Positions 2,532 through 62,315 of a stretch of DNA of 64,000 nucleotides are shown here, piece by piece. The position numbers and the translations under genes are program-made. Origin of the DNA: Octopus vulgaris. Taxonomy: Eukaryota. The notes under the pieces are model-generated. The model was not told the DNA's origin. It was given only the letters and a program-made list of their open reading frames with translations, and ran no database searches. How positions within the stretch are numbered: position 1 is the stretch's first letter; each line of letters starts with the position of its first letter. Location of the stretch: positions 40,548,001 through 40,612,000 of the forward strand of contig OX597832.1 of NCBI GenBank assembly GCA_951406725.2. The letters run 5' to 3'.

Positions 2532-2676
2532 TTAGATGAGGTCAGCAACATTCATAGGCATTTCAGCAACTGCAGTGTTATAAAAATGTTCGATGTCTCG
2601 AAGAGTCCGAATATCGTCCTCAGTTACGAAGTTGATAGCAACTCCTTTACGACCAAATCGACCACCCCTGCCAATA
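2532..2676 (-). CDS. eIF4A: eIF4A-A exon 10 ([11 protein letters not shown]...NVADLI*)
   Basis: 145 nt; TTTTCAG acceptor; TAA at 2532-2534. Confidence 0.95.
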
Positions 2677-61100: not shown

Positions 61101-62315
61101 GATGATGATGACGATGAAGACATTCACCAGCAATAGTTTATAATCAAGATGCAAAACTATTTTTGCATTATTGCTTCAATGGGGTCCGCTTTGAGAAGAG
61201 AGAATGGGTACGATGAGGTGAATGCGCGGCGTGTGTATGAATTTTGTTAGAAGTCATATCGTGTGTATTGCAAATAACTATCATCAATGTGACAGCAGTT
61301 TTACACGAACTGGTGTGCTCCACAAGTCACTAAAGACCCACAGTTGGATAGGAATTTGGACGACTGCCTATTGACAGATGAGAAGCAATCGATTAAATTG
61401 ACCACTTATTACCTAACGAACCTCGGAAAATTTGAATTTAGATCGTAAAGAGCTGGAACAAATATCAAAAGGCACTTTTATCCGACACTCTAATGATTCT
61501 ATCGATATAATGTTGGTAGGGTGAGAAACGAATGTATGGTGTGTGTGTATGTATGTATATATATATATCTACATATATATATATATATATATATACTTTA
61601 TTTAAAAGCTGCAGAAAATTCAACAAAACCTGTTACTCTGAGTTTCACGTTGCCGTTCGTCGGACAGTTTTTGCTAGAATAGAACCGTCCGACGAACGGG
61701 AACGTGAAACTCAGAGTAACAGGTTTTGTTGAATTTTCTGCTGCTTTAAATAAAGCATATTACTCTACCACTGGTATTTGAGTACTCTTTTTTCCACCTT
61801 GTTTCACATTTATGTGCTTACTCCGGTATATATATATAAATATATATATATATATATATGTCAAGAGAGAGAGAAAGAAAAGATGACATTCATGATGTAA
61901 GCATTAATTTCCTGCCACATACGCGATAAAAAAAAATGTTAATTTTTCCATCATGAGCATGGTGTACGAGTGTGCAAACTGGGTGATATGTAATAAATGG
62001 TTTGTTTGCTGCTTAAACCCCCGTGTCAGACCTCGCCATCTCGTCCTTTTCCCCCCAAGTACTGAGTATCTAAGACAATATCCGATGTGTACTTTTAAAA
62101 AAAGTTTTGAAGACGAATGATGGGGGGGGGGGGGGGTATAATTTGTGGAATGTTTAGCTGCTCTTTCTAACAGACCAAGCGCTCGCGTAAGGGTCGCACA
62201 TGTAGACCGAGGAGTGAAACGGCAGAAGGAATATATATTAAAAAAGTTGCCTGAATATTTCAGAAATATTATGAAATCGTTAATATGTTTTAAAAAAACC
62301 CAATAAAACTTACAT
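36993..62315 (-). CDS. eIF4A: Eukaryotic initiation factor 4A, paralog B (10 coding exons, about 401 aa; exon 1 tentative)
   Basis: complement(join(36993..37137,37244..37413,39758..39895,41706..41849,43781..43890,45213..45378,51235..51374,51835..51967,53598..53655,62314..62315)). Exon 3-10 lengths are identical to paralog A; all helicase motifs intact; no stops or frameshifts. Confidence 0.9.
37244..37413 (-). CDS. eIF4A: eIF4A-B exon 9
   Basis: 170 nt; HGEMDQKER...ARGID...YIHR. Confidence 0.95.
37772..38000. mobile_element. piggyBac-type MITE family A
   Basis: TTAA TSD and CCC/GGG termini. Confidence 0.85.
39758..39895 (-). CDS. eIF4A: eIF4A-B exon 8
   Basis: 138 nt; [30 protein letters not shown]. 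Confidence 0.95.
40500..40903 (+). mobile_element. CR1-clade LINE 3' end
   Basis: ORF reads [11 protein letters not shown]...[17 protein letters not shown], the typical CR1 ORF2 C-terminus; (ATT)n tail. Confidence 0.8.
41357..41660 (+). mobile_element. (GAT)n-tailed SINE with internal ~60-bp tandem units
   Basis: Same family; repeated gtgccggtggcacgtaaaaagcacc unit. Confidence 0.85.
41706..41849 (-). CDS. eIF4A: eIF4A-B exon 7
   Basis: 144 nt; [10 protein letters not shown]...[12 protein letters not shown]. Confidence 0.95.
42702..43037 (+). mobile_element. tRNA-derived SINE
   Basis: Same family as 45458-45845. Confidence 0.8.
43781..43890 (-). CDS. eIF4A: eIF4A-B exon 6 (DEAD)
   Basis: 110 nt; [25 protein letters not shown] acceptor and GTTAG donor. 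Confidence 0.95.
44811..44953. repeat. Inverted repeat (38-bp perfect arms) inside a (TA)n-flanked, Penelope-like insert (about 44713-44987)
   Basis: 44811-44848 is the reverse complement of 44916-44953. Confidence 0.8.
45213..45378 (-). CDS. eIF4A: eIF4A-B exon 5
   Basis: 166 nt; [11 protein letters not shown]...[10 protein letters not shown]. Confidence 0.95.
45458..45845 (+). mobile_element. tRNA-derived SINE (related copies 39968-40373, 42702-43037, about 47075-47485)
   Basis: Pol III A and B boxes, internal (TA/TG)n, tail gtaaaagagtaagag. Confidence 0.85.
47955..50830 (+). mobile_element. Decayed piggyBac transposon with nested SINE and MITE
   Basis: TTAA-CCCTTT at 47955 and AAAGGG-TTAA at 50830; broken transposase with an acidic N-terminus, [13 protein letters not shown] and [10 protein letters not shown]...[29 protein letters not shown] (48533-48971). 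Confidence 0.85.
51235..51374 (-). CDS. eIF4A: eIF4A-B exon 4
   Basis: 140 nt; AQSGTGKT and PTRELAQQ. Confidence 0.95.
51574..51692. repeat. Near-perfect 119-bp palindrome in a (TA)n-flanked insert
   Basis: Centred on gacaaa/tttgtc; one mismatch and one 1-nt indel. Confidence 0.9.
51835..51967 (-). CDS. eIF4A: eIF4A-B exon 3 (Q motif)
   Basis: 133 nt; [13 protein letters not shown]...[13 protein letters not shown]. Confidence 0.95.
52006..52355. mobile_element. piggyBac-type MITE family A, partial copy plus full copy in tandem
   Basis: Left end ttaacccttttgataccaacccgcctgaa occurs twice (52006 and 52126). Confidence 0.8.
52935..53162. mobile_element. TTAA MITE family B (reverse orientation)
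   Basis: TTAA TSD and CCCTTTAG TIRs. Confidence 0.8.
53598..53655 (-). CDS. eIF4A: eIF4A-B exon 2 ([19 protein letters not shown])
   Basis: 58 nt; TTTTCAG acceptor and GTAAG donor; same phase and IE ending as exon 2 of paralog A; contains no in-frame ATG. Confidence 0.8.
54299..54524. mobile_element. piggyBac-type MITE family A
   Basis: TTAA TSD and TIRs. Confidence 0.85.
56981..60416. mobile_element. Cluster of five family-B TTAA MITEs: 56981-57209, about 57330-57541 and 57628-57856 forward; 59782-60000 and 60189-60416 reverse
   Basis: Repeated ~225-bp body with CCCTTTA/TAAAGGG TIRs and TTAA flanks. Confidence 0.8.
58726..59087 (-). mobile_element. (GAT)n-tailed SINE with three internal tandem units
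   Basis: Unit ccagacgaggctggcaacggccacaatcggatggtgctttttacgtg repeated. Confidence 0.85.
60463..60681. mobile_element. hAT (Charlie-like) MITE
   Basis: TIRs CAGTG(C/G)TTTTCAA; perfect 8-bp TSD GACTAGAC on both sides. Confidence 0.85.
61625..61671 (-). ncRNA. Minimal type I hammerhead ribozyme motif (U4C variant)
   Basis: CTGT-CCGACGA-ACG GCAA CGT-GAA-ACTCAGAGT-A-ACAG: stems I and II plus palindromic stem III. Confidence 0.65.
61683..61727 (+). ncRNA. Minimal type I hammerhead ribozyme motif (U4C variant)
   Basis: AACCGT-CCGACGA-ACG GGAA CGT-GAA-ACTCAGAGT-A-ACAGGTT; predicted GUA cleavage after 61718. Confidence 0.6.

What the first reader, a model, noticed from the sequence alone, without database searches (positions are those of the whole stretch)
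2532..62315. Old tandem pair of intact, strongly diverged eIF4A paralogs
Seen: two complete minus-strand eIF4A genes with identical exon 3-10 sizes (133/140/166/110/144/138/170/145). They differ at about 76 of 381 residues by manual count (~80% identity), have unrelated N-termini and unalignable introns, and neither is disabled. Known: vertebrate eIF4A1/2 are about 90% identical and unlinked, and many invertebrates have a single DDX2-type gene. Inference: an independent, long-retained lineage-specific duplication with probable subfunctionalisation of cap-dependent initiation. Divergence concentrates in exon 5 (18/55).
Basis: partly seen in the sequence, partly recalled or inferred. Interest (0 to 1): 0.7.

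Follow-up and report, generated by a model that had tools for sequence, protein, structure and literature searches.

The report
Ancient twin eIF4A genes of cephalopods
This octopus carries two intact neighbouring genes for the translation helicase eIF4A that likely split before octopuses and cuttlefish parted, and the faster-changing copy has lost an acidic residue known to contact the scaffold eIF4G, so it is predicted to plug into translation initiation differently.

Summary
In detail: two intact minus-strand eIF4A genes, exon sizes as stated, 76 of 381 differences, 18 of 55 in exon 5, saturated synonymous sites, and introns sharing only dispersed repeats. One correction: the upstream copy (B) does not start at 62315. 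A spliced contig places exon 1 about 3.2 kb beyond the window, with the ATG split by an intron. Cuttlefish has both copies, and trees favour one duplication on the coleoid stem (at least about 275 My; AU p=0.050 against separate duplications). It is not pan-molluscan; nautilus is untested. Cuttlefish copies are 90% identical, so the 80% figure reflects octopod acceleration. The exon-5 excess is not significant and holds 0 of 11 paralog-diagnostic sites. The clearest diagnostic change is E268G in B, at an eIF4G contact that is acidic in 201 of 203 other homologs; weaker eIF4G coupling is inferred, not shown. B is spliced in 4 of 4 runs; A's splicing was not shown. Diverged lineage-specific eIF4A pairs are known (trematodes, about 60% identity).

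The parts
2532..22961 (-). eIF4A copy A (downstream), 10 coding exons: 22961-22957, 20873-20813, 16202-16070, 13004-12865, 9554-9389, 7865-7756, 5512-5369, 4961-4824, 3147-2978, 2676-2532; 403 aa
   Evidence: joined exons translate letter for letter to P0005, annotated for Octopus vulgaris / O. sinensis.
36993..53655 (-). eIF4A copy B (upstream), coding exons 2-10: 53655-53598, 51967-51835, 51374-51235, 45378-45213, 43890-43781, 41849-41706, 39895-39758, 37413-37244, 37137-36993; 401 aa with exon 1
   Evidence: Joints exon 2-3, 3-4, 4-5 and 5-6 seen in 4 of 4 laid runs; exons 7-10 lay outside the laid stretch. 391 of 401 residues identical to O. bimaculoides P0123.
53656..64000 (-). Part of intron 1 of copy B (13,585 nt). 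Exon 1 ends ...AT at L015:3241 (window-equivalent 67241), beyond the window, and the G of the start codon is the first base of exon 2.
   Evidence: Loose end in run X4, located; GTGAGT donor. One run shows the loose end; the O. bimaculoides ortholog starts with the same MSSESSQK.
39860..39862 (-). Copy B Gly codon (GGA) at human position 268, an eIF4G-contact site; copy A has Glu (GAG) at 4928-4926
   Evidence: Sequence; numbering from the alignment to human eIF4A1; distribution; contact from PMC7470955 section 15.
45238..45240 (-). Copy B Ser codon at human position 163 (rocaglate pocket); copy A has Gln at 9416-9414
   Evidence: meaning of the residue from PMC10250355 passages.

Best explanation
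The window holds two intact tandem eIF4A (DDX2-type) genes that likely arose by one duplication before octopuses and cuttlefish split, with copy A likely the conventional helicase of eIF4F and copy B a faster-changing copy whose E268G change is predicted to weaken or retune its grip on eIF4G. Shown: gene structures, intact helicase motifs, both copies in two Octopus species and in cuttlefish, B spliced, and E268G confined to B among cephalopods. Inferred: B still unwinds RNA with ATP, but one of five eIF4G contact sites is lost, so it is stimulated less by canonical eIF4G. It would then act as a secondary, separately regulated initiation helicase (more often free, or on a different eIF4G paralog). 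That division of labour would be why both copies lasted about 275 My or more.
For: Gene integrity and purifying selection: dN 0.147, pS 0.76, 84 of 122 fourfold sites differ. Only two DDX2-type loci were found in the genome; the third hit, on C11, has the look of eIF4A3/DDX48. Tree of 35 proteins: cephalopod A+B clade 100/100, A clade 87.9/87, B clade 88.5/93. Site patterns: 11 paralog-split vs 2 species-split vs 1 cross. N-termini left out of the tree also sort by paralog. All 16 cephalopod entries, and no others of 212, carry Leu for Ala in the Q motif. Both copies share a longest-contig length and near-consecutive accessions in S. pharaonis (CAE1170747.1 / CAE1170749.1) and in O. bimaculoides, indirect evidence of a conserved tandem. 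Position 268 is Gly in all 6 cephalopod B entries plus the window's B, and acidic in 201 of the other 203 matched proteins (209 of 292 matched the pattern). In human, E268 is modelled against eIF4G R764/S767 and E268R reduced eIF4G co-precipitation (PMC7470955 section 15). B changes faster: 10 vs 1 differences to O. bimaculoides (p=0.012). Octopus split from decapodiforms about 275 Mya (PMC9068888 passage).
Against: The AU test did not clearly reject separate duplications (p=0.0501), and A and B each had SH-aLRT of only 82 under the mixture model. The six B database entries are near-copies representing about two lineages. The human mutant tested was a charge reversal (E268R), not Gly. B keeps the other four contacts (R45, D265, D296, T298). 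Two unnamed non-cephalopod proteins (P0106, P0109) also have Gly268, so it is tolerated elsewhere. Relative-rate tests were significant in 2 of 4 outgroups for octopus and 1 of 4 for cuttlefish. No tissue-level expression, no binding data, and no codon-level test on orthologs. Gene order in other species was not read directly. An Argonauta B was not among the 120 listed hits.
Confidence: 0.55

Rival explanations
1. Same ancient duplication, but the proteins are biochemically interchangeable. Both are kept for dosage or for different expression (as proposed for human eIF4A1/2), and E268G is a tolerated neutral change.
For: Cuttlefish A and B are 90.3% identical, like human eIF4A1/2. Most of the other 10 paralog-diagnostic sites have both states, or similar ones, among outgroups. 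All human eIF4A/eIF4G combinations recruit ribosomes (PMC7470955). Gly268 occurs in 2 other proteins.
Against: Position 268 is acidic in 201 of 203 non-B proteins, yet Gly is kept in both B lineages. Octopus B also changes four sites invariant in all 25 outgroups (human 165, 305, 325, 400).
Confidence: 0.3
2. B is the dedicated partner of a divergent eIF4G paralog, forming a second cephalopod eIF4F. The candidate is the short intronless eIF4G-like gene on C16 (L019).
For: The genome has two multi-exon eIF4G-like loci with canonical helix 1, plus an intronless 490-aa ORF with a putative eIF4E-binding motif (motif form recalled) and one MIF4G domain. Its helix 1 has Asn and Ala at the sites aligned to human S767 and T773. 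An Argonauta ortholog is 76% identical, and Sepia has a 361-aa short eIF4G.
Against: The S767 site varies widely among eIF4Gs (S 52, G 40, A 21 of 128 motifs), so the change is weak evidence. Orthology of the Sepia short protein (36% identity) is untested. There is no binding evidence.
Confidence: 0.08
3. Octopods and decapodiforms duplicated eIF4A independently, or gene conversion blurred the history, so the pair is younger than 275 My.
For: AU p=0.0501; 2 species-split sites, at human 198 and 378.
Against: 11 paralog-split sites, paralog-specific N-termini, and apparent tandem placement in both lineages.
Confidence: 0.05
4. The second copy was kept as a shield against natural eIF4A-clamping compounds.
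For: B has Ser (octopus) or Leu (cuttlefish) at 163, types reported as rocaglate-resistant; A has Gln or His, reported or predicted as sensitive. All cephalopod copies lose Asp198. The survey found such a split in animals only in pathogens (PMC10250355 section 8).
Against: Position 163 tolerates 14 residues, and the authors consider resistance largely incidental. Rocaglates come from land plants. Clamping by the sponge compound pateamine A was reported to be independent of residues 163 and 198, although another study disagrees (PMC11259845 passages).
Confidence: 0.02

Closest known systems
Vertebrate eIF4A1/eIF4A2 (DDX2A/DDX2B)
   Same: Two intact eIF4A paralogs about 90% identical (PMC7470955 passage; PMC12827517 Table 1), as in cuttlefish; largest divergence at the N-terminus.
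   Different: Independent origin (PMC12827517 argues the same for flatworms; vertebrate copies were not in my tree). The pair here is tandem, 80% identical in octopus, and one copy lacks the acidic 268 residue that human eIF4A1 (E268) and eIF4A2 (E269) both have.
Trematode eIF4A-a / eIF4A-b (Schistosoma mansoni; PMC12827517, passages and section 17 read)
   Same: Lineage-specific invertebrate duplication with retained, diverged copies; one Schistosoma isoform also has a resistant-type residue 163 (PMC10250355 section 8).
   Different: Trematode copies are more diverged (56-62% identical) and differ 30- to 330-fold in transcript level. Here expression ratios are unknown and the genes are neighbours.
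eIF4A3 / DDX48 (exon junction complex)
   Same: Same fold and motifs.
   Different: Both window genes score higher against eIF4A-I chains (677 vs 598 bits for A; B groups with A in the tree). A separate DDX48-like gene lies on C11.

Membership tests
eIF4A (DDX2-type) DEAD-box helicase | DEAD and Helicase_C domains with intact Q motif and motifs I-VI | tested here: met
   Pfam PF00270 and PF00271 over cut-off for P0005, P0123 and P0209; motifs intact in both window proteins. The Q motif carries a cephalopod-specific Ala-to-Leu change.
eIF4A (DDX2-type) DEAD-box helicase | Closer to eIF4A-I/II than to eIF4A-III | tested here: met
   (A: 677 vs 598 bits); B is sister to A with 100/100 support; a separate DDX48-like locus exists.
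eIF4A (DDX2-type) DEAD-box helicase | eIF4G contact residues R45, D265, E268, D296, T298 (human numbering, PMC7470955) | tested here: inconclusive
   A keeps 5 of 5; B keeps 4 of 5, with E268G. The effect on binding is not shown.
eIF4A (DDX2-type) DEAD-box helicase | RNA-dependent ATPase/unwinding stimulated by eIF4G and eIF4B | not testable with these tools
   Needs purified protein.
Retained ancient paralog pair | Both copies intact and under purifying selection | tested here: met
   Open frames, dN 0.147 against saturated dS; orthologs 99.7% and 98.4% identical in the core in O. bimaculoides.
Retained ancient paralog pair | Both copies transcribed and spliced | tested here: inconclusive
   B: four exon joints in 4 of 4 runs, which are guessed to be RNA; no intronless copy found in the genome.
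Retained ancient paralog pair | Single duplication older than the octopus-decapodiform split | tested here: inconclusive
   Favoured by tree, site patterns and N-termini; AU p=0.0501.
Pan-molluscan duplication | Other molluscs fall within the A or B clade | tested here: not met
   0 of 11 bivalve and gastropod sequences do. No named nautilus or chiton sequence was among the listed hits.
Subfunctionalised paralogs | Distinct expression or biochemical roles | not testable with these tools
   Only assembled contigs without tissue labels were available; their depth cannot rank genes.

The most novel reading that the evidence does not exclude
Coleoid cephalopods evolved a second translation-initiation circuit. 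eIF4A-B, stripped of the E268 contact, is a natural altered-specificity helicase that bypasses canonical eIF4G or pairs with a cephalopod short eIF4G. It would give these animals a separately tunable, rocaglate-insensitive route for translating a subset of mRNAs, a natural counterpart of the engineered eIF4A:eIF4G obligate dimers built at the same residue.
Probability: 0.12. Interest if true: 0.75.

Novelty: new member of a known kind. Interest (0 to 1): 0.36.

Why it matters
Why animals keep two eIF4A genes is unsettled even in humans. This is an independent case, likely 275 My old or more, with one sharp, testable difference at a mapped eIF4G contact, so a single swap (G268E) can ask whether paralog retention involves partner specificity. 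It also predicts that cephalopod translation is only partly sensitive to rocaglate tool compounds, which matters for anyone using them in octopus or squid neurons. Without functional data it is an ordinary retained duplicate whose gene models already exist in public annotation.

Tried and rejected
Exon 5 as a hotspot of functional divergence: rejected (heterogeneity p=0.22; 0 of 11 diagnostic sites). Start at 62315: rejected. Intronic snoRNAs, which vertebrate eIF4A genes host (recalled): 0 Rfam hits at gathering score; the 47 weak hits are below cut-off and sit on AT-rich repeats and palindromes. RNA editing in B: the one exonic difference listed by place (51298, run X14 only) is synonymous; 111 further difference rows were not shown. 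Conserved intron or 3'UTR blocks between copies: only dispersed or simple repeats. No complex prediction was run, since eIF4A-eIF4G would pass by likeness to solved structures and could not separate A from B. Earlier findings of the scan: nothing by place, eight unrelated notes by words, no note with the word eIF4. Literature: (listings only, open-access library) gave no paper on cephalopod eIF4A paralogs; PMC9068888 has 0 occurrences of 'eIF4' in its main text. Supplements of cephalopod genome papers were not examined and may list the duplication.

Full report
Observation. Motif scanning found two sets of eIF4A exons on the minus strand. Splice-site fitting gave exons 3-10 of identical size in both, with GT..AG introns and identical phases. 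dN is 0.147, pS 0.76, and 84 of 122 fourfold sites differ, so synonymous change is saturated. Introns share only dispersed repeats: the segments of A intron 4 that hit B intron 4 also hit B introns 1, 2 and 8. Copy A translates letter for letter to P0005, annotated for Octopus vulgaris and O. sinensis, so the animal is an octopus of that group.

Correction of the 5' end of B. Contigs from four runs of four studies, guessed to be RNA, show the joints between exons 2-3, 3-4, 4-5 and 5-6 of B in 4 of 4 runs. A 26-nt loose end at exon 2 in one run leads to a site 3,241 nt beyond the window. Exons 7-10 of B were outside the laid stretch, and A's splicing was not shown.

Copy number. Searches of the genome with exon 9 of A and exon 5 of B found these two loci and a third on C11. 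The C11 exons read like eIF4A3/DDX48 (the diagnostic motif is partly recalled). Only the best candidates are scored, so this is a lower bound.

Age. O. bimaculoides has both copies (P0004, P0123) and so does Sepia pharaonis (P0011, P0209), each pair with the same longest-contig length and close accessions; positions were not read. A tree of 35 proteins and 383 columns, chosen from the named and cephalopod-like hits among 292, puts all cephalopod copies in one clade (100/100), split into A (87.9/87) and B (88.5/93), with 11 other molluscs outside. Under a mixture model on 20 of these rows, A and B each had support of 82, and forcing octopod A and B together cost 10.7 log-likelihood units (p-AU 0.0501). 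Site patterns favour paralog grouping 11 to 2 to 1, and the N-termini left out of the tree sort the same way. Six derived residues are shared by all four coleoid copies and absent from the 11 other molluscs. Among them is Leu in the Q motif, seen in 16 of 212 proteins, all cephalopod. With octopus and decapodiforms splitting about 275 Mya (PMC9068888, passages), one duplication on the coleoid stem is the likely history. No nautilus sequence was available.

Pattern of divergence. Cuttlefish A and B are 90.3% identical, octopus A and B 80.2%. Lineage-only changes number 26 for octopus B, 14 for octopus A, 7 for cuttlefish B and 0 for cuttlefish A. B differs from its O. bimaculoides ortholog at 10 residues and A at 1 (p=0.012). 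Relative-rate tests reach p<0.05 in 2 of 4 outgroups for octopus and 1 of 4 for cuttlefish. The exon-5 excess is not significant across exons (p=0.22), and exon 5 holds none of the 11 diagnostic sites.

Mechanistic lead. Of the 11 diagnostic sites, the one at an otherwise near-invariant position is human 268 (numbering): Glu in A, Gly in B of both octopus and cuttlefish. Among 209 of 292 proteins matching the pattern, 181 have Glu, 20 Asp and 8 Gly; six of the eight are cephalopod B entries and two are unnamed. In PMC7470955 (passages and section 15 part 1) E268 is modelled against eIF4G R764/S767, E268R reduced co-precipitation with eIF4G, and the site served to build obligate dimers. PMC2216682 (passages) uses the same D265R/E268K mutant design. 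B keeps the other four contacts and all catalytic motifs. The inference is weaker or retuned eIF4G coupling; Gly itself has not been tested in what I read.

Partner side. The genome has two multi-exon eIF4G-like loci with canonical helix 1, plus an intronless short one (L019) altered at the S767- and T773-aligned sites and conserved in Argonauta at 76%. The S767 site is variable among eIF4Gs, so pairing with B is a low-odds idea.

Drug pocket. Residue 163 is Gln/His in A and Ser/Leu in B, and Asp198 is Ser, Gly or Asn in the cephalopod copies. By PMC10250355 (passages and section 8) this is a sensitive/resistant split, previously noted in animals only in parasites, but the position is very tolerant. 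PMC11259845 (passages) reports that pateamine A clamping is independent of it. I treat it as a by-product.

Comparison and novelty. Independent, even more diverged eIF4A pairs are published for trematodes (PMC12827517, passages and section 17), and human eIF4A1/2 are about 90% identical. That they are unlinked is recalled, not tested. Both octopus genes exist as automatic annotations in O. bimaculoides. Searches (listings only) showed no paper on the cephalopod pair; searches served other questions. Subscription papers and supplements were not seen.

Verdict. Real, old and apparently undescribed as a pair, but of a known kind: new member, interest 0.36. The best reading has odds of 0.55; the duplication history alone is about 0.85, and the eIF4G-coupling step is the uncertain part.

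Noticed in passing
L019:1156-2628 (G000:C16): Intronless 490-aa eIF4G-like ORF with a putative eIF4E-binding motif and a single MIF4G domain whose first helix is degenerate; 76% identical ortholog in Argonauta (P0293); a 361-aa short eIF4G exists in Sepia (P0447). Likely a retained retrogene; no contig laid in four runs.
   Followed up: partly
L025/L020 (C16) and L024/L021 (C25): Two separate multi-exon eIF4G-like loci with canonical helix 1, besides DAP5-like (L022) and UPF2-like (L023/L026) MIF4G loci (labels by recalled likeness). Only two eIF4E-family loci were seen.
   Followed up: partly
window 53655 and L015:3241-3242: The start codon of copy B is split AT|G by a 13.6-kb intron; copy A has a phase-2 intron after five coding bases.
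   Followed up: yes
window 23013 and L015 about 3374 (window-equivalent 67374): Both genes have ATCCACGTG (E-box core) about 50 and 130 nt upstream of the end of exon 1; CACGTG occurs 7 times in 74 kb. Possibly a retained promoter element.
   Followed up: no
window 19620-19947; 61602-61750; 51560-51706: Near-perfect intronic inverted repeats (arms 142, 68 and 67 nt, 91-94% complementary), MITE-like; hairpins in pre-mRNA that could be editing substrates.
   Followed up: no
window 16130-16100 and 51895-51865 (exon 3): Q-motif Ala-to-Leu substitution shared by all 16 cephalopod entries and no other of 212 proteins; Cys264 is also lost in all cephalopod copies (invariant in 25 outgroups).
   Followed up: partly
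L018:6987 (minus), L016:8169-3802 (minus): Flanking genes: a RING-finger protein exon about 13 kb downstream of the window, and exons resembling a TAF6-like gene upstream of B (names by recalled likeness, not searched); useful synteny anchors.
   Followed up: no
P0106, P0109 (unnamed): Two non-cephalopod eIF4A proteins that independently carry Gly268, Asn163 and loss of Asp198, the same three sites altered in cephalopod B.
   Followed up: no
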